A stretch of DNA of 17,563 nt from a virus (Duplodnaviria; Heunggongvirae; Uroviricota; Caudoviricetes): positions 1 through 17,563 of IMG/VR virus record IMGVR_UViG_2737471860_000010; one strand, given 5' to 3'. The stretch's first letter is position 1. Every line of letters starts with the position of its first letter. The notes beneath the pieces are model-generated. The model was not told the DNA's origin. It ran no database searches and worked only from the letters and a program-made list of their open reading frames with translations. Made by a program: the position numbers and the translations under genes. This document shows positions 6,349 to 12,977 of this stretch, piece by piece.

Positions 6349-6376
6349 TCGCCATGCACACACAAAAAAACCGCTT
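6327..6376. repeat. Direct repeat copy 2 (~50 bp) at the 3' end of dam
   Basis: GAACTGCTACCGGACTGAGTAATCGCCATGCACACACAAAAAAACCGCTT. Same sequence as copy 1 with A7 instead of A5. Confidence 0.9.
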
Positions 6377-6463
6377 GCCATGCCGTAATCAGTCGGGTTA
6401 CATTCCCGCTGCACCTTATAAAACGGGTGCCGGGTTTCGCAGCCTGCTGACTACATACGCGCA

Positions 6464-6484
6464 CAACCGCGCCAGCGGTTTTTT
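6464..6484 (+). terminator. Candidate intrinsic terminator (short GC stem plus T7 run)
   Basis: AACCGC-GCCA-GCGGTT followed by TTTTTTT. The stem is only 4 GC plus 2 AT pairs, so it would be weak. Confidence 0.4.
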
Positions 6485-6664
6485 TGTGCGTACTGCATTG
6501 CCACGTCTTTTTCGCATCAGAATTATGGCGGGGCGTACGGGGCCGACTTCGGTCGGGCCGGGATCGTATGTAGCCGGTACTGCGAACCTCGTACGTCTCG
6601 CCACCCACAGTTTCGCAGCTCTGGATGGTGAGTTTTTAAAACTTACTACATACGAGGCCACACC

Positions 6665-6892
6665 ATGGCAAACCGCAAACAACAGCGCGCCCGCGCTGAG
6701 CGCCTTCACATCCGCACCGAAATCAACCGCAGACTTTTCCGCGCATCACGCGTCGCGCAAATCATGCACATCAATATGCTGCATGAGCGCACTCACGCCC
6801 TGTCAAACCGTTACTGTGCCGCTGTTTTCAGCTACCTGGCGGATGATCTCGCGGAACTGCAGAACCTTATCAACCAGCAACACCACCACTAA
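6665..6892 (+). CDS. Small basic hypothetical protein (75 aa)
   Basis: ATG 6665 preceded by ACGAGG. Ends just before the RBS of the next gene. Coding status is uncertain because it lies in a GC-rich, ORF-dense region with overlapping frames. Confidence 0.35.
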   Translation: MANRKQQRARAERLHIRTEINRRLFRASRVAQIMHINMLHERTHALSNRYCAAVFSYLADDLAELQNLINQQHHH

Positions 6893-6960
6893 ACAACATC
6901 CTGAAGCCATCCCGCACCCGTACGCGGGAGGCTTCCGCACGTCTGTTACCGGAGGTTCAC

Positions 6961-7374
6961 ATGAAGAACGTTAAGGAACTTTCAGATATTCAGGATTTTT
7001 TTAACTGGATGTGGTCGGTGGATCCACACCTCGCCTCCCGCCTCAATGACTGGCATGACTATTACCGCCGCGCCTGTAAACAGGCAGCCAGCAGTATCAC
7101 CACATCAGGTGATTTCTCCTTCACCGTTGATGACCGTTACCGTGTTGACGTCAGAGACCTGAATCACAGCCTGAATCTGGGCCTGTTCCACATCAACGGG
7201 CACGACCACAGCGTAATCAGTTGGTCATCGTCAGAAATGGCGCTCGTACTGGACATGACAACCCACAGCGTGGCAGTGAAAGGGATTAAAACGGCAGAAG
7301 GCTTTATTGACGAATACCGGCGCCTTCTTGTGCTGTACCGTGCCGCATTTCAACGGGCAACTGCCGGGGAGTGA
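6961..7374 (+). CDS. Hypothetical protein immediately upstream of replication gene A (137 aa)
   Basis: ATG 6961 preceded by GGAGG. Stop at 7372-7374, 5 nt before the A start. Confidence 0.65.
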   Translation: MKNVKELSDIQDFFNWMWSVDPHLASRLNDWHDYYRRACKQAASSITTSGDFSFTVDDRYRVDVRDLNHSLNLGLFHINGHDHSVISWSSSEMALVLDMTTHSVAVKGIKTAEGFIDEYRRLLVLYRAAFQRATAGE

Positions 7375-7379
7375 GCGCC

Positions 7380-9908
7380 ATGAACACCAACCGCGAATGG
7401 GCCTGGTCATGGAACGCTCCACTGCCCGTTATCGACCCGGAAACCTTCGGCAGAGCGTTACCACAGAAGCCGACGGCATTACGCAGGGCAATTCAGAGCT
7501 ACATCAACGAAGACATCCGGATTAATGCCCGGCTGGATGAAGAAACCGTCGTCTTCCTGACAAGCACAGAAAAAGGCAGGCAGATTAATTCGCACCTTCA
7601 TCACGACGAAGAGCGGCAGATACGGCTGGAAAAGCTGGCCAGGTACAGACGCGATAACCCACCCACGCTGGTATCCGAGGCCATGGCAGAGCTGCGCGCC
7701 CTTCCGGCCTTTCTCGCCGGACCGTTGATTCGCAGGCTGGCGTTCTTCAGACGCAAACAGGACGATGCCCGTCAGAAAGAACTTAAGAACAACAGCGCAT
7801 ACGCAGCGGATAACTTCGTTCGCCACGGGCTGCGCGCCCGTCTGAAACGCATCAGACAGGTGAATGAACGGTTTGCCACTACAGCATTTAAGGCCACCGC
7901 TGCCCGCGAACGACTGGATGAACTCCTGATACTCCCGCAACTGGAGCGCGACGACATTCAGCGCCTTGCCACCCTGACCGCCACCGCGTTTTCCGCCGCA
8001 CTGGAGCGCGCATTTGATGAGGCCATCAAAAGGACCGGAAAGGGGGATGATGACCTGTACACCTGGCTGCTGACCTACCAGCCGCTGGCACATATGGCGT
8101 TAAAACTGGGTGTCACCCCGCCCTGCTGGCCGTCGCTGGAAATCAGACCCGACCGCCGCACCGCCCCCGACCTGGAACAGGTGCCGGGTGCAGTCATGCG
8201 TCTTTCCTGCGCGAACTGGTGGAACGGTCAGTTAAGACACCTTCGCGACATCTGGCGGGAAGAGCTGTTACGCGCCGCAGGTCTGGTGTCACGTAAGGAG
8301 TCGGTATACATCAGCCATGAAGCGTTACTGGACTGGCGCGAAAAACGCCAGCGCACCCGCGATTTTCTGAAAGCCTGGGATGTCGAGAACGAAGAGGGAG
8401 AGCGGTTCAGCCTTGAGGATATCTACTGGGCCGGACTCGCCAATCCGCGCAACCGTCGCAACGAGATGATGGCCTGCGTCCGGGGAATGGAGCAGGTCGC
8501 CGAAGCGCGCGGCGATGTGGCGTTTTTCGTCACCGTCACCGCCCCTTCCCGTTTTCACAGCGTGAACGATGACGGCAGCCTGAACCCGAAATTCTGCGGG
8601 GCAACGGTACGCGATGCCAGTGATTACCTGGTTTACAGATTTTTCGCTGCCGTCCGCAAGGCCATCAGCAAAGCCGGGCTGGGCTGGTACGGTGTACGCA
8701 CCGTGGAGCCTCACCACGACGGCACACCGCACTGGCACATGCTGGTATTCACCAGTCCGGAAAACGAAGCCCGTATCACTGAAATCATGCGCAACGCCGC
8801 CATCAGGGAGGACCGTGCAGAGCTGGGTGATGATATCTCCCCGCGTTTTAAATGCGAAAAAATCGACCCAGCAAAAGGCACCCCGGCAAGCTATATCGCG
8901 ACCTATATCGGTAAGAACCTGGACGCCAGCGTATTTATGGGGAATGACCCGAAAACCGGCAAACCATACGCAGACAGGGAATCAGGCAAAACAATGGCAG
9001 AAACCGTGGAGAACGCCATCGGCTGGGCGACCCTTCACCGCATCCGCCAGTTCCAGTTCTTCGGTATCCCGCCACGCCAGGTATGGCGCGAACTCCGCCG
9101 TCTTGCCGGGCAGATAGCCCGTAACCCGAAGGCACCACAGCGCCTCGATAATGAAGACATTGACGCCATACTGGCCGCCGCTGATGTGGGATGTTTTGCC
9201 ACCTACATCACCAGGCAGGGTGGTGTACTCATTCCCCGCAACACGTACCTGGTCCGCACCGCATACGAAACCGCCGAAGAGGCCAACGACTACGGCGAAT
9301 TTCCGCAACGTATTTACGGTGTCCGTGCACCGTCACTCGGGGAGCAGTACACCATATGCACCCATCCGGACACCTGGAAACTGGTCAGACGTAAGCCGGA
9401 AGGTGAAGACAGCGCCAGCGAAACTGATTTTGACGTTGAGGGCGACTTTGTCGCCCCTTGGACTCGTGGCAATAACTGTCCCCATGACCAGAATTTAACC
9501 AGTAATGCCACGCCAGAAGGGCAACAGGACAGACGCAGGGAGCAACGACTTACCCTGCCGGAAGGTGATTTAACCGAATGGCTGAGGTCGCTGACACCGG
9601 TACAGAGAAAACAACTCACCCGGCAGTTGAAAAACCCGCCACCTGACACAGAAACCGTGAAAAACGGCGGCATCAGTGCGCCCACTGACGGCGTTCGCGT
9701 GGATGTCGCACTGACAGCAGAGCCACACATCACCGCACAAATCACCTGCGAACTCGATGCACTGGGCGTACAACTGCCTGACGCAGCCATTATTTCCGTG
9801 CGTAACGGGGCCCGTGTTCTCCTGGATGACGGGCGCACCGCGTACTGGAACGACAACACCCGCCGCATTGAGCTCAACCCTGCACAGAAAACGGAGGGGC
9901 CACAATGA
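7380..9908 (+). CDS. A: Rolling-circle replication initiator, P2 gpA family (842 aa)
   Basis: ORF track 7371..9908 opens with GTG; first ATG is 7380, preceded by GGGGAG. HUH-like motif (…TPHWHMLVFT…) and the tandem-tyrosine active-site block (…SYIATYIGKN…) are characteristic of phiX174/P2 A-type initiators. Confidence 0.9.
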   Translation: MNTNREWAWSWNAPLPVIDPETFGRALPQKPTALRRAIQSYINEDIRINARLDEETVVFLTSTEKGRQINSHLHHDEERQIRLEKLARYRRDNPPTLVSEAMAELRALPAFLAGPLIRRLAFFRRKQDDARQKELKNNSAYAADNFVRHGLRARLKRIRQVNERFATTAFKATAARERLDELLILPQLERDDIQRLATLTATAFSAALERAFDEAIKRTGKGDDDLYTWLLTYQPLAHMALKLGVTPPCWPSLEIRPDRRTAPDLEQVPGAVMRLSCANWWNGQLRHLRDIWREELLRAAGLVSRKESVYISHEALLDWREKRQRTRDFLKAWDVENEEGERFSLEDIYWAGLANPRNRRNEMMACVRGMEQVAEARGDVAFFVTVTAPSRFHSVNDDGSLNPKFCGATVRDASDYLVYRFFAAVRKAISKAGLGWYGVRTVEPHHDGTPHWHMLVFTSPENEARITEIMRNAAIREDRAELGDDISPRFKCEKIDPAKGTPASYIATYIGKNLDASVFMGNDPKTGKPYADRESGKTMAETVENAIGWATLHRIRQFQFFGIPPRQVWRELRRLAGQIARNPKAPQRLDNEDIDAILAAADVGCFATYITRQGGVLIPRNTYLVRTAYETAEEANDYGEFPQRIYGVRAPSLGEQYTICTHPDTWKLVRRKPEGEDSASETDFDVEGDFVAPWTRGNNCPHDQNLTSNATPEGQQDRRREQRLTLPEGDLTEWLRSLTPVQRKQLTRQLKNPPPDTETVKNGGISAPTDGVRVDVALTAEPHITAQITCELDALGVQLPDAAIISVRNGARVLLDDGRTAYWNDNTRRIELNPAQKTEGPQ

Positions 9909-10336
9909 CCCGTTTTTACTGCACCATGCAGCGCCAGCGCTTTGACAACATGATGCGCCAGCGCACGCCATTACTGACTCTGAACAACATTGCCACGAGA
10001 CCACAACCCGGCGATGAACTGGAAATCACAGTGGTCAATCCTGACCGCACCACGAAAACCACCATTACAGATATACTCAACAGACGGCCGGGAAATGAAC
10101 ATAAGAGCTGGATTGTCTCAGTTCGTACCCGCCGTTCGCCGGAGGAGTCGGAGCCGTGCACACCTGCAGGGAAAATCATGCAGAAGTACCACGAAGAACA
10201 GGCACACAAACACAACGCAGCACTGGCCAGAACACTGAATGTCGTCAATCGCAAGGCCGCCCTGGCGGGAATGGTCTTTTCACCACAACGCAATTCATTC
10301 GCCAGGCCGACACAACACCGGAGAACACCACAATGA
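9905..10336 (+). CDS. Hypothetical protein translationally coupled to A (143 aa)
   Basis: ATG 9905 overlaps the A stop (ATGA) and follows GGAGGGG. Basic product with no recognisable motif. Confidence 0.6.
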   Translation: MTRFYCTMQRQRFDNMMRQRTPLLTLNNIATRPQPGDELEITVVNPDRTTKTTITDILNRRPGNEHKSWIVSVRTRRSPEESEPCTPAGKIMQKYHEEQAHKHNAALARTLNVVNRKAALAGMVFSPQRNSFARPTQHRRTPQ

Positions 10337-10824
10337 ACGAAGTCGATTATCAGGCGTTGCGTGACACAGCAACGGCAACAGAAAAAGTGGCAACACCAAA
10401 GAAACTTCTGGCATTTCGTATTAAGGCCACACCATCGGTGGTACTGGCTCTCCTGGACGAACGGGACAGGCTCAGGGATTACGTTAACCTGTACGAAGGA
10501 GAAAAGTGGCATTACTTTCAGCTCGCCGGGTCCGAGGCTGAACGTGCAGATAAAGCAGAAAAAGAACTGGGAAAAGCGAAGCTGCGCATCGCTGAGCTGG
10601 AAGAAATCGCGACTGACTATGCGCTGAAATTCCAGAAAGCCCAGGATGCACTAAAGCATGCAGTCTTACTGCACAAAAACACATCAAGGAGCTTTACGGT
10701 TTTCCTGCCAGAAATCAGTGAATACTTCATCGACGATGTGTTTCAGCCTTTACGCTATGAACGGGATATTGAAAAAGCCGTTATCCTGGCAGGTGGTGTG
10801 GTCAAATGGCATAACAAGAAATAA
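10333..10824 (+). CDS. Hypothetical coiled-coil protein (163 aa)
   Basis: ORF track 10156..10824. Start set at ATG 10333, overlapping the upstream stop (ATGA). Central heptad-like region (…AERADKAEKELGKAKLRIAELEEIATDYALKFQKAQDALK…). Confidence 0.6.
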   Translation: MNEVDYQALRDTATATEKVATPKKLLAFRIKATPSVVLALLDERDRLRDYVNLYEGEKWHYFQLAGSEAERADKAEKELGKAKLRIAELEEIATDYALKFQKAQDALKHAVLLHKNTSRSFTVFLPEISEYFIDDVFQPLRYERDIEKAVILAGGVVKWHNKK

Positions 10825-10831
10825 TTAAGAG

Positions 10832-10876
10832 AACCGGGAACAGGTGCGCAAATTCTTTGTGCGCCTGTTCCCGGTT
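10832..10876. terminator. Long hairpin between convergent gene ends (candidate bidirectional terminator)
   Basis: AACCGGGAACAGGTGCGCA / loop AATTCTT / TGCGCCTGTTCCCGGTT. About 19 bp of stem with two G-U pairs, sitting between the stop at 10824 (+) and the stop at 10957 (-). Confidence 0.6.
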
Positions 10877-10956
10877 GGACAAGCAAAGCGCGTCAGAAAA
10901 TGGATGAGCAGAACATGCACAATAAAAGGCATTTACACAGAATCCTAAACAGGCTC

Positions 10957-11583
10957 TCAACGTACGGTTCTTATCCTCCGGATATCCATTCTGACAATCT
11001 GGTCACGAGGGATCCATGTCGCCAGATTGCCAGACTGCTTATCCATTACGTTATCATATTTCATCCATTCACGACTGTTATTATCTCTGTAATGTGTGAC
11101 ATAAAGAGTAATGTCACCATTGTTACCAAGCGTCAGTGGCCCATTTGGTAGCTGTTCAAAATCAGCCGATAAAAGAGAACGTAATACCGAGCCATCTTTC
11201 AGAAATACTAAAACCTCTGTTACAGGAAAATCAGTCTGTTCAAACATCGACTGCCACGCAGAACTACTACTGTCTGACCATGAGATATCATGCTTTCTGA
11301 GGAAGCGGTACATCCATGCTCGTGCATATTTACGCCAGTATGCGCCACTCGCCACAGCATATAAAACCGTTGGAAGTGTAGCCGTCCAGTCATCAACACC
11401 TGCCCATACAAATGCATGGTAAACCATAGCGGAAAACATGCCAAAAATCAGGGTGGAAAACGTTATCTCTGTAGGTTTATGACTATCGTTGATCCCAACA
11501 GTTGATATGAAATAGCCAATATATCCACAGGAAAGCGTGACAAGTGCCTCCCATGGTAAATTCAAAAGAGAAGAGTCCAACAT
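10957..11583 (-). CDS. Membrane protein with 2-3 N-terminal TM helices and a ~110 aa soluble C-terminal domain (208 aa); candidate effector of a cargo system
   Basis: ATG (rc 'cat' 11581-11583) preceded by GAGGGT, 21 nt after the stop of the zinc-finger gene. Hydrophobic segments WEALVTLSCGYIGYFISTVGI and ITFSTLIFGMFSAMVYHAFVWAGV, plus a weaker third. Followed by a long hairpin. Confidence 0.7.
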   Translation of the reverse strand: MLDSSLLNLPWEALVTLSCGYIGYFISTVGINDSHKPTEITFSTLIFGMFSAMVYHAFVWAGVDDWTATLPTVLYAVASGAYWRKYARAWMYRFLRKHDISWSDSSSSAWQSMFEQTDFPVTEVLVFLKDGSVLRSLLSADFEQLPNGPLTLGNNGDITLYVTHYRDNNSREWMKYDNVMDKQSGNLATWIPRDQIVRMDIRRIRTVR

Positions 11584-11604
11584 CAGTTACCCTCATCACC
11601 ACAC

Positions 11605-11862
11605 TCATCCAGCCTGCAGCAATTCCAGCGCCATCTGCTTTTCTTCCGGGCGCATGCGTTCTATCAGTAATTTCAGTACACCGTTATCCAGACCGCTTGG
11701 GACAAGCGTATGAGAATAGGTCAGATTCATCACCCAGGTATGCCCACAGTCAAGCCGGGTACAGCGGTAATATACATCGGCAAAATGGTCCGTTTTCCAT
11801 ACGGTTTTTTCAATAATGGCCACCGAACCACAGCAATGACACCGTGCCTTTTGTCTGCGCAT
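11605..11862 (-). CDS. Ogr/Delta-type zinc-finger protein (85 aa)
   Basis: ORF track 11605..11928. Start set at the internal ATG (rc 'cat' 11860-11862) with a strong SD (GGGAGGTGGAAC-ATG). C-x2-C-x22-C-x4-C spacing (CHCC…YYRCTRLDCGHTW) matches P2 Ogr as recalled. An alternative ATG at 11926-11928 overlaps the Q stop. Confidence 0.65.
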   Translation of the reverse strand: MRRQKARCHCCGSVAIIEKTVWKTDHFADVYYRCTRLDCGHTWVMNLTYSHTLVPSGLDNGVLKLLIERMRPEEKQMALELLQAG

Positions 11863-11927
11863 GTTCCACCTCCCGACAGATTGCTTCGGTCGTGGTGATT
11901 TTAACCGCTCTCGTCCTGTACAGCACA

Positions 11928-12977
11928 TTATCTGCCCTGCTCTTCAAAATTAAGGTCAAACACCACGCGCCCGAGGCGGAGAATATCACGGTCACTGTTG
12001 ATACTTTCCATTATCAGCCGTCGCATGGGGATCACTTCATCACGGTAGTACGCTTCGCGTGATTTGAGCGGATCACCAAGTCCGGCAGTATTGGCTGGAA
12101 TAATGCCAGCCAGCCCTGGCGGGAAACGGTGCGCAACAAGTTGGTCCTGCGCACTGATATTCTTGATATTCAGAAATTCATCTTTGGTACCGGTATCACC
12201 AACAGGAATTACCTTCACCCCCTCAGCATTCCCTCCGGGTATATTAATAAACATGGATTTAAAATTTCCTGCGCCTTTTGACTGTTCAATTTTTTTACGA
12301 AACTCATCCTCGAGCTCAGGCGACATATCAGGATCCGTGGTATATAAAATGTAACCGAGGTGTGCGCCGTTTTTAAAATATTTACGGCGGAACCGGGTGG
12401 CATCCACATTAAGCATGGCGGACTCCATACCATGGATATAGTCCGGAACCCCATATACCTGTTGTTGCGGATCGTAGATGGCAACAAAGACCACTTCATC
12501 AGGTCCATATACCGTGTCATCCATAGCCATCTGCACGATCACCGTTCCACCGTTACTGTTGCGGCGCAGATACAGGGAGGGTAGCGTGACAAGCCTGACC
12601 ACTTTCCCGAAACCATTGCGCACTTTCAGCAGTCCGACATCACCGAATATCAGCAGGTTGGTGACAGCAGCTGTCATTGCCGCGTGACTCATGCCGCCAC
12701 CACTTTTAAATCCCTGCATAATCATATTAACCCGCGCACGTAACACTGCCCCATGATAGGGGGCAATATTGGCCAGTACGGCAAGGTCCATCCGTTCAAC
12801 AGGCGGCTGGTAATAGCCGTTATAACCGTCCCAGAATGTGCCGTTATAACTTCCCCAGGCAGCAACTGGCTCGGGATCACCAAATTCAATCAGGCTCATT
12901 TTTTTGCCTGCTGACTGTCCTTGCGTATTCACTGCGACATCACCTTGCTGCCGGCACTGTTTATTCTTTTTAGTCAT
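11928..12977 (-). CDS. Q: Portal protein, P2 gpQ family (349 aa)
   Basis: ORF track 11928..12983 opens with TTG; first ATG is 12975-12977 (MTKKNKQ…), 8 nt inside the 3' end of P. Length and position (downstream of P, divergent from O-N-M) fit P2 Q. Confidence 0.85.
   Translation of the reverse strand: MTKKNKQCRQQGDVAVNTQGQSAGKKMSLIEFGDPEPVAAWGSYNGTFWDGYNGYYQPPVERMDLAVLANIAPYHGAVLRARVNMIMQGFKSGGGMSHAAMTAAVTNLLIFGDVGLLKVRNGFGKVVRLVTLPSLYLRRNSNGGTVIVQMAMDDTVYGPDEVVFVAIYDPQQQVYGVPDYIHGMESAMLNVDATRFRRKYFKNGAHLGYILYTTDPDMSPELEDEFRKKIEQSKGAGNFKSMFINIPGGNAEGVKVIPVGDTGTKDEFLNIKNISAQDQLVAHRFPPGLAGIIPANTAGLGDPLKSREAYYRDEVIPMRRLIMESINSDRDILRLGRVVFDLNFEEQGR

What the first reader, a model, noticed from the sequence alone, without database searches (positions are those of the whole stretch)
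9905..10824. Two unknown genes translationally coupled to the 3' end of replication gene A
Both start codons overlap the preceding stop (ATGA at 9905 and at 10333). The products are a basic 143-aa protein and a 163-aa coiled-coil protein with no motif I recognise. They lie on the A side of the same variable junction and are closed off by the 19-bp hairpin. They could be early accessory genes (anti-repressor or host-takeover type) or part of the cargo.
Basis: partly seen in the sequence, partly recalled or inferred. Interest (0 to 1): 0.5.

Follow-up and report, generated by a model that had tools for sequence, protein, structure and literature searches.

The report
Two accessory genes coupled behind P2-type gene A
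Both genes behind the replication gene of this P2-like E. coli prophage are real: the first is a backbone gene matching phage P2's orf91 in position and predicted fold, the second is an already-named ead/Ea22-like gene that opens the variable cargo region, so the finding is largely ordinary.

Summary
ORF1 (9905-10336, 143 aa, pI 11.0) and ORF2 (10333-10824, 163 aa) each start in an ATGA start/stop overlap, each preceded by a GGAG(G) ribosome-binding site. A 21-nt-arm hairpin (10832-10876) follows them.

They are not fully unknown. ORF2 passes the Pfam Ead_Ea22 threshold, and its exact sequence is already annotated "ead/Ea22-like family protein" in NCBI. Its N-terminus matches lambda Ea22. Its C-terminal half matches gp56 of the P2-like phage P88.

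In five cargo arrangements the ORF1 homologue always follows A, and similarity between loci stops exactly at its stop codon. ORF1 is backbone. ORF2 is the first gene of the known A-Q hotspot.

Likely roles, both inferred: a nucleic-acid-binding accessory made alongside A, and an Ea22-type early modulator. Neither gene resembles a known anti-repressor or defence protein.

The parts
7380..9908 (+). Replication gene A (rolling-circle initiator), 842 aa from the ATG at 7380; the open frame begins at a GTG at 7371
   Evidence: Pfam Phage_GPA E 1.4e-105 and phrog_91 'nicking at origin of replication'. The start follows the gene calls in L004-L011.
9893..9908 (+). Coupling junction 1: GGAGG (9893-9897), 7-nt spacer, ATGA overlap (9905-9908) of the A stop and the ORF1 start
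   Evidence: Read directly from the sequence. The same GGAGG...ATGA is present in L001, L002, L018 and L020, and P2 A/orf91 has GGAG...ATGA.
9905..10336 (+). ORF1, 143 aa, pI 11.0. An ASCH/PUA-like beta-barrel is predicted for residues 1-75, a long helix for 87-124, and a disordered basic tail after that. Backbone gene; positional and fold-level counterpart of P2 orf91.
10320..10336 (+). Coupling junction 2: GGAG (10320-10323), 9-nt spacer, ATGA overlap (10333-10336) of the ORF1 stop and the ORF2 start. This is also the left edge of the variable region.
   Evidence: The alignment of window, L002, L020 and L004 is conserved up to A(A/G)TGA, with GGAG invariant, and unrelated after it. Different cargo genes start at the same overlap.
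10333..10824 (+). ORF2, 163 aa, ead/Ea22-like protein: a short N-terminal module, a roughly 80-residue helix (coiled coil) and a small alpha/beta C-terminal domain. First gene of the variable cargo.
   Evidence: Pfam Ead_Ea22 38.7 bits against cut-off 27. 625 homologues, nearly all named ead/Ea22-like. 39% identity to lambda Ea22 over residues 1-51; hhalign probability 98.3%. 72% identity to P88 gp56 over residues 85-162. Model. Frameshifted in L008.
10832..10876 (.). Hairpin between the convergent gene sets. It pairs perfectly as + strand RNA (two G-U pairs) but has no U-tract on that side. On the - strand it is followed by a U-rich tail.
   Evidence: It occurs only in loci that carry the ORF2 cargo, L004-L011. 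Only sub-threshold chance hits to eukaryotic miRNA/snoRNA models.
10957..11583 (-). Context: convergent 208-aa cargo gene, apparently three hydrophobic (membrane-type) segments followed by a soluble domain, function unknown
   Evidence: phrog_12870, unknown function, E 2.4e-83. Translation. No PADLOC or NCBIfam hit.
11605..11862 (-). Context: Ogr/Delta-like zinc-finger late activator next to portal gene Q, on the right side of the variable region
   Evidence: Pfam Ogr_Delta E 1.6e-11. Gene calls.

Best explanation
The two ORFs are the last two genes of the early replication operon of a P2-like E. coli prophage. They are read on the same transcript as gene A, and each is translated through a conserved ribosome-binding site plus ATGA start/stop overlap.

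ORF1 is a backbone gene and the local equivalent of P2 orf91. It is predicted to be a small ASCH/PUA-like beta-barrel followed by a basic helix. I infer that it is a non-enzymatic RNA- or ssDNA-binding accessory protein, made alongside the cis-acting initiator A and close to the origin inside gene A.

ORF2 is the first, exchangeable gene of the known A-Q diversity hotspot. It is an Ea22-type protein with an N-terminal cap, a coiled-coil stalk that probably forms oligomers, and a swappable C-terminal domain. By analogy with lambda and Stx-phage Ea22, I infer that it is an early, dispensable modulator of the lysis/lysogeny outcome or of host physiology, acting through an unknown partner.

The hairpin ends the module, and it also terminates the convergent minus-strand cargo gene.

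Shown here: the gene structure, purifying selection, family membership of ORF2, the fold prediction for ORF1, the synteny, and the exact boundary of the variable region. Inferred: co-transcription, nucleic-acid binding by ORF1, and an Ea22-like role for ORF2.
For: Structure and coupling. No + strand promoter-like or terminator-like site between A and the hairpin.

Backbone against cargo: the ORF1 homologue follows A in five different cargo arrangements, and homology ends at its stop codon.

ORF2. The three-part Ea22 architecture, its tetramer state and its pro-lysogenic phenotype come from PMC10834534 and PMC7093339. Ead_Ea22 and DUF3850/ASCH genes are already listed among A-Q hotspot arrangements in PMC9122126 Table S5A. 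ORF2 is frameshifted in one otherwise intact copy (L008), so it is dispensable for prophage carriage.
Against: ORF1 has no statistically supported sequence link to DUF3850/ASCH. There is no Pfam hit. hhalign against P2 Orf91 found nothing. Against a diverse DUF3850 profile it gave E 0.022 and probability 2%. The K-x-x-E-x-R / N-D-R motifs conserved in my 11-sequence DUF3850 alignment are absent from ORF1.

The ORF1 model rests on a shallow alignment (18 sequences, Neff about 1.5), and only 2 of 5 models were confident.

No function is known for P2 Orf91 itself.

ORF2 shares only its N-terminal 51 residues with lambda Ea22. Its C-terminal domain has no match among solved structures, and that part of the model has low confidence (pLDDT 56-74). 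Phenotypes from lambda's exo-xis region may not transfer to a P2-type phage.

No transcript data are available. The hairpin has no U-tract on the + strand, so termination of the early transcript there is not assured.
Confidence: 0.6

Rival explanations
1. ORF2, alone or together with the convergent 208-aa membrane protein, is an anti-phage defence or superinfection-exclusion cargo of the A-Q hotspot, not a modulator of the phage's own development.
For: The A-Q interval of P2-like prophages is a documented hotspot enriched in defence systems (PMC9122126). ORF2 lies in the exchangeable part. It is mosaic. The hairpin travels with this cargo.
Against: No PADLOC model matches ORF1, ORF2 or the 208-aa protein. 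ORF2 sits in the early lytic operon, coupled to ORF1, so it should be silent in a repressed lysogen. The P2 exclusion genes old and tin have their own promoter on the other strand. The same paper notes that many hotspot genes have other functions. Characterised Ea22 proteins affect the phage's own lysis/lysogeny choice.
Confidence: 0.15
2. ORF1 and ORF2 form an anti-repressor or induction module, comparable to Tum of phage 186 or epsilon of P4, which both lie in or act on this part of P2-type genomes.
For: In 186 and related phages the region just after A carries the SOS-controlled tum anti-repressor operon.
Against: There is no sequence or profile similarity to DinI/Tum or to any regulator. 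No promoter-like site lies ahead of the genes. Genes expressed only as part of the already derepressed early operon cannot start derepression. A different nested ORF elsewhere in the window (6665-6892) carries the Pfam 'Derepression' signature.
Confidence: 0.05
3. The ASCH-like fold of ORF1 is a modelling artefact or a convergence. On this view ORF1 is an orphan basic protein unrelated to orf91, for example a partner of A or a DNA-binding protein that works through its basic helix and tail.
Confidence: 0.2

Closest known systems
Bacteriophage P2 Orf91 (NP_046796, Pfam DUF3850/ASCH)
   Same: It lies immediately downstream of replication gene A, with its start in an ATGA overlap with the A stop behind a GGAG. 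It is the last + strand gene before convergent cargo. Its beta-barrel is of the same PUA/ASCH type as the ORF1 model, and both point to PDB 3iuw. Its function is unknown.
   Different: No detectable sequence similarity to ORF1. ORF1 lacks the DUF3850 K-x-x-E-x-R / N-D-R motifs and adds a roughly 40-residue basic helix and tail. The ORF1 family is confined to a narrow E. coli prophage lineage, whereas DUF3850 is found in 569 phage records across many hosts.
Lambda Ea22 and the Stx-phage Ea22 proteins (Pfam PF13935 Ead_Ea22)
   Same: ORF2 passes the family threshold. It shares the N-terminal M-S/N-E-I/V-x-x-Q-A-L-R ... V-L-x-L-L-D-E module with lambda Ea22. It has the same three-part plan of short N-terminus, long coiled coil and small C-terminal domain. 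It is an early-operon, non-essential gene.
   Different: ORF2 sits in a P2-type phage behind gene A, not in the exo-xis region under pL. Its C-terminal domain is unrelated to the solved lambda domain. Pro-lysogenic activity has not been tested.
gp56 of P2-like phage P88 (Xuanwuvirus, YP_009877445)
   Same: 72% identity over ORF2 residues 85-162, covering the end of the coiled coil and the C-terminal domain. It is also located in the A-Q interval of a P2-like phage.
   Different: The N-terminal half differs. In P88 it follows partition genes and is not coupled to an orf91-like gene.
A-Q diversity/defence hotspot of P2-like prophages (Rousset et al. 2022, PMC9122126)
   Same: ORF2, the hairpin and the 208-aa gene occupy this interval. 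Ead_Ea22 and DUF3850/ASCH genes are already listed among its arrangements.
   Different: That study took everything between A and Q as the locus. Here the left edge is placed precisely at the stop codon of the orf91-like gene, which belongs to the backbone.

Membership tests
Ead/Ea22-like (Pfam PF13935), for ORF2 | Scores above the curated Pfam gathering threshold | tested here: met
   38.7 bits against a cut-off of 27, E 1.9e-9, residues 16-118. Homologues carry PF13935 and the name ead/Ea22-like. The exact sequence is so named in NCBI.
Ead/Ea22-like (Pfam PF13935), for ORF2 | N-terminal module homologous to lambda Ea22 itself | tested here: met
   BLASTP 39% identity over residues 1-51, E 2e-7. 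hhalign probability 98.3%, E 1.4e-14.
Ead/Ea22-like (Pfam PF13935), for ORF2 | Three-part architecture: short N-terminus, central coiled coil, separate C-terminal domain (PMC10834534) | tested here: met
   AlphaFold model: helices 6-18 and 22-31, one helix 34-115, a small alpha/beta unit 122-159. The oligomeric state cannot be tested with these tools.
Ead/Ea22-like (Pfam PF13935), for ORF2 | C-terminal domain of the lambda type (solved by NMR) | tested here: not met
   No sequence hit to any PDB chain and no Foldseek hit with E <= 0.001. The literature says C-terminal domains differ between lambda and Stx-phage Ea22, so this does not exclude membership.
Ead/Ea22-like (Pfam PF13935), for ORF2 | Pro-lysogenic effect on phage development | not testable with these tools
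   Needs deletion and complementation assays as in PMC7093339.
ASCH / DUF3850 (PUA-like superfamily), for ORF1 | Match to the Pfam ASCH or DUF3850 model | tested here: not met
   No hit at E <= 0.1 for the window protein, nor at E <= 1 for two homologues. P2 Orf91 hits both models.
ASCH / DUF3850 (PUA-like superfamily), for ORF1 | [quoted passage not shown] | tested here: met
ASCH / DUF3850 (PUA-like superfamily), for ORF1 | Profile-profile sequence homology to DUF3850 | tested here: inconclusive
   hhalign E 0.022, probability 2%. The alignment is collinear (residues 6-75 against 8-78) around G-D-x-L. Nothing was found with the less diverse profile.
ASCH / DUF3850 (PUA-like superfamily), for ORF1 | Conserved K-x-x-E-x-R and N-D-R motifs of DUF3850 | tested here: not met
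   The motifs are present in all or nearly all 11 aligned DUF3850 sequences. ORF1 has R-Q-R-T-P-L-L-T-L-N-N-I-A-T-R at that place.
Positional orthologue of P2 orf91, for ORF1 | First gene after A, with its start overlapping the A stop | tested here: met
   An ATGA preceded by GGAG(G) is found in the window, L001, L002, L018, L020 and P2.
Tum/DinI-type or epsilon-type anti-repressor | Sequence or profile similarity, and an own (LexA-controlled) promoter | tested here: not met
   No such Pfam, NCBIfam or PHROG hit. No + strand promoter-like site in 7000-12200.
Known anti-phage defence system | Match to a PADLOC model | tested here: not met
   No family matched at E <= 0.1 for ORF1, ORF2 or the 208-aa neighbour.

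The most novel reading that the evidence does not exclude
An ASCH/PUA-type protein translated directly after the rolling-circle initiator A could be a functional partner of A that nobody has recognised. The pairing is seen in P2 and, with no detectable sequence similarity, in this lineage, and an ASCH-type gene also abuts A in a 186-like phage. Such a partner might bind the displaced single strand, an RNA, or Dam-methylated DNA at the origin; a Dam-type methylase lies in the same operon.

Separately, its conserved GGAG-ATGA end may work as a fixed docking point that puts whatever cargo gene lands there under early-lytic translational coupling.
Probability: 0.15. Interest if true: 0.55.

Novelty: new member of a known kind. 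Interest (0 to 1): 0.27.

Why it matters
The result tidies the annotation of a common E. coli prophage type. ORF2 needs no new explanation, because it is an Ea22-family gene in the known A-Q hotspot.

ORF1, now 'hypothetical protein' in 74 public contigs, can be described as an orf91-like, ASCH-fold protein.

Two points may help people who study P2-like hotspots. First, the hotspot's left edge is the stop codon of the orf91-like gene, not the end of A. Second, the first cargo gene is often plugged into a conserved ribosome-binding-site/ATGA junction. That would express it with the early lytic genes instead of in the lysogen, which argues against a defence role for that first gene.

The recurrent pairing of A with an ASCH-type gene gives a concrete handle on the still unknown function of P2 orf91.

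Tried and rejected
- Megablast of 9600-11000 and tblastn of ORF1 against 50,697 phage records found nothing. No close relative of this lineage is in the phage collection; the best A protein match is 52-54% identical.
- An exhaustive HMMER profile search with the ORF1 family over 1.84 billion representatives gave only 3 true relatives and 2 weak repeat-like hits, so no remote family was reached.
- PDB sequence searches gave nothing significant for ORF1 or ORF2.
- hhalign of the ORF1 family against P2 Orf91, against close Orf91 relatives, and against a diverse 11-sequence DUF3850 alignment was never significant.
- Foldseek of the ORF2 model against the PDB gave no hit; the long helix dominates the model.
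- PADLOC and NCBIfam gave nothing for ORF1, ORF2 or the 208-aa gene.
- The Rfam scan of 9500-11700 gave only sub-threshold hairpin look-alikes.
- A search for the P2 cos sequence in the window found nothing with up to 3 mismatches. I did not locate cos.
- The antisense 198-aa ORF (9916-10512) was considered as the real gene and rejected on composition and on the + frame substitution pattern.
Full report
**What is there.** The window is a P2-like prophage of E. coli. An integrase-side early region runs rightward into a Phage_GPA replication gene (A, 7380-9908; Pfam E 1.4e-105). Both start codons sit in an ATGA that also holds the preceding stop codon. Each start has its own ribosome-binding site inside the upstream gene: GGAGG 7 nt before the ORF1 ATG, and GGAG 9 nt before the ORF2 ATG. 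ORF1 is basic (pI 11.0) and ORF2 is near neutral. The inverted repeat after ORF2 has 21-nt arms (10832-10852 / 10856-10876). It folds at -41.7 kcal/mol as + strand RNA, z = -8.

**Are they genes?** Yes. Against two diverged E. coli homologues, ORF1 differs mostly at third codon positions, with dN/dS of 0.20-0.28. Gene A gives 0.18-0.31 in the same comparisons. Indels in the family alignment are whole codons. The longer antisense ORF (9916-10512) translates to a Cys/Phe-rich sequence with no support. ORF2 has 625 database homologues. The exact proteins are already in NCBI: ORF1 as 'hypothetical protein' on 74 contigs, and ORF2 as 'ead/Ea22-like family protein' on 35 contigs, under adjacent accession numbers.

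**ORF2.** It passes the curated Pfam threshold for Ead_Ea22 (38.7 bits against 27). It is a mosaic.
- Residues 1-51 resemble lambda Ea22 (39% identity; hhalign probability 98.3%) and Stx-phage Ea22 proteins.
- The middle resembles Sb32 of phage ST64B.
- Residues 85-162 are 72% identical to gp56 of the P2-like phage P88, which also lies between A and the packaging end.

The AlphaFold model shows two short helices, one helix spanning residues 34-115, and a small, low-confidence alpha/beta domain. This is the three-part plan described for Ea22: N-terminus, coiled coil, C-terminal domain, and a tetramer in solution (PMC10834534). The C-terminal domain matches no solved structure by sequence or fold. 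That fits the reported diversity of C-terminal domains in this family. In lambda and Stx phages, ea22 is an early, non-essential gene whose deletion speeds induction and raises progeny, so it is called pro-lysogenic (PMC7093339, PMC10834534). ORF2 carries a 1-nt insertion and frameshift in one otherwise identical prophage copy (L008), so it is dispensable for carriage.

**ORF1.** Sequence methods say little. It matches phrog_14984 (unknown function) over its full length. It has no Pfam, NCBIfam or PADLOC hit. There are 17 clusters, all from E. coli, and only three true relatives among 1.84 billion representative proteins.

**Link to P2.** In phage P2 the gene after A is orf91. It also starts in an ATGA overlap with the A stop. 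It is a Pfam DUF3850 + ASCH protein, and it matches 3iuw by sequence (E 5e-11). So a model built without any synteny information lands on the structure that represents the gene at the same place in P2. I take ORF1 to be the positional and fold-level counterpart of orf91.

I could not show homology by sequence. hhalign gave nothing against Orf91 or its close relatives. Against a diverse DUF3850 profile it gave only E 0.022 and probability 2%, although that alignment is collinear and centred on a shared G-D-x-L motif. The conserved K-x-x-E-x-R and N-D-R motifs of DUF3850 are absent from ORF1. The function of Orf91 is listed as unknown (PMC3091744). DUF3850 is widespread in phages (569 records). 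In a 186-like Yersinia phage a DUF3850 gene abuts A on the upstream side. An association between A and an ASCH-type gene therefore recurs.

**Backbone or cargo?** I examined five different arrangements: the window and L004-L011, L001, L002, L018/L019, and L020. In all of them the ORF1 homologue directly follows A with GGAGG...ATGA. What follows ORF1 differs each time:
- the Ea22-like gene plus a 208-aa membrane protein;
- a hypothetical gene plus a YafO toxin;
- a 100-aa gene, IS600 and an HTH/PIN pair;
- MarR-like, TumE and HVO_A0114 genes;
- four small unknown genes.

A nucleotide alignment is conserved up to A(A/G)TGA, with GGAG invariant, and unrelated beyond it. In L002 and L020, unrelated cargo genes start in the same overlap. 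So ORF1 belongs to the A module. ORF2 is the first gene of the A-Q hotspot described by Rousset et al. (PMC9122126), whose tables already list Ead_Ea22 and DUF3850/ASCH genes there. The hairpin occurs only with the ORF2 cargo.

**How it most likely works.** No + strand promoter-like or terminator-like site lies between A and the hairpin. Both genes are therefore probably read on the early transcript and translated by ribosomes that terminate on the upstream gene. This is inference; there are no transcript data.

For ORF1 I propose a small nucleic-acid-binding accessory protein, made alongside the cis-acting initiator A near the origin inside gene A. This rests on the fold class, which mostly comprises RNA binders and modified-base readers, and on its basic helix. 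It probably has no DUF3850-type catalytic or ligand site. For ORF2 I propose an Ea22-type coiled-coil oligomer that presents a variable C-terminal domain to an unknown partner and tunes the lytic/lysogenic outcome.

The hairpin pairs better as + strand RNA (two G-U pairs) but lacks a U-tract on that side. On the minus strand it is followed by a U-rich stretch. It probably terminates the convergent 208-aa gene, and stabilises or partly terminates the early transcript.

**Rivals.**
- Defence cargo. The location favours it. Against it: no PADLOC hit, and placement in the lytic operon rather than behind its own promoter as for old/tin.
- Anti-repressor. There is no similarity and no promoter, and the position is illogical because these genes are expressed only once the early operon is already derepressed.
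- ASCH fold as artefact. This is possible given the shallow alignment, but the convergence on 3iuw argues against it.

**Verdict.** One gene is a member of a named family. The other is a divergent equivalent of a known but uncharacterised P2 gene. This is mostly ordinary prophage anatomy. The modest new points are the fold assignment for ORF1 and the base-precise, coupling-competent left edge of the hotspot.

Noticed in passing
window 10921-10960: About 36 bp between the hairpin and the stop of the 208-aa gene match hundreds of E. coli genomes at 97-100% (762 records, up to 21 places per genome, 119 on plasmids). In NZ_CP021339 the match lies right at the 3' end of an IS256-family transposase pseudogene. 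It looks like a solitary end remnant of an IS256-family element inside the variable junction.
   Followed up: partly
window 10957-11583 (-): The convergent 208-aa cargo gene appears to have three hydrophobic segments followed by a soluble domain. It matches phrog_12870 (unknown function) with no PADLOC, Pfam or NCBIfam hit. Its only phage relative is a 31%-identical hypothetical protein in a Synechococcus phage. It is a better candidate than ORF2 for a lysogen-expressed exclusion gene.
   Followed up: partly
window 6665-6892 (+), nested in ORF 6354-6974: In related loci the gene callers choose either the 206-aa ORF or a nested 75-aa ORF, and the latter carries Pfam PF25738 'Derepression'. Which of the two is real was not examined, nor whether it is an epsilon-like anti-repressor.
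   Followed up: no
L016 3004-3285 (Yersinia phage vB_YpM_MHG38): A DUF3850 gene 39% identical to P2 Orf91 lies immediately upstream of A and overlaps it by 10 nt. This is where phage 186 has orf84, whose translation is annotated as needed for A translation. ASCH-type genes thus sit next to A on either side in different P2-like phages.
   Followed up: partly
window 9922-9940 and 9946-9964: A 19-nt direct repeat (84% identical, 24 nt apart) inside ORF1 encodes the tandem peptide T-M-Q-R-Q-R / N-M-M-R-Q-R, in and just after the predicted first helix. It looks like a small internal duplication.
   Followed up: no
L008 6429-6921: The ORF2 copy in this E. coli genome has a 1-nt insertion after nucleotide 300, which shifts the frame, while ORF1 and the hairpin are intact.
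   Followed up: yes
window 10877-11927: The P2 cohesive-end sequence is absent from the window even with 3 mismatches. An Ogr-like gene and the 208-aa gene lie downstream of Q where P2 has cos, so the packaging site of this lineage is unlocated.
   Followed up: partly
window 7380-10336 against L001 and L002: Divergence is uneven across the A/ORF1 boundary. Window against L002: A has dS 1.37 and ORF1 0.69. Window against L001: A has dS 0.38 and ORF1 0.70. This suggests past recombination near the junction.
   Followed up: no
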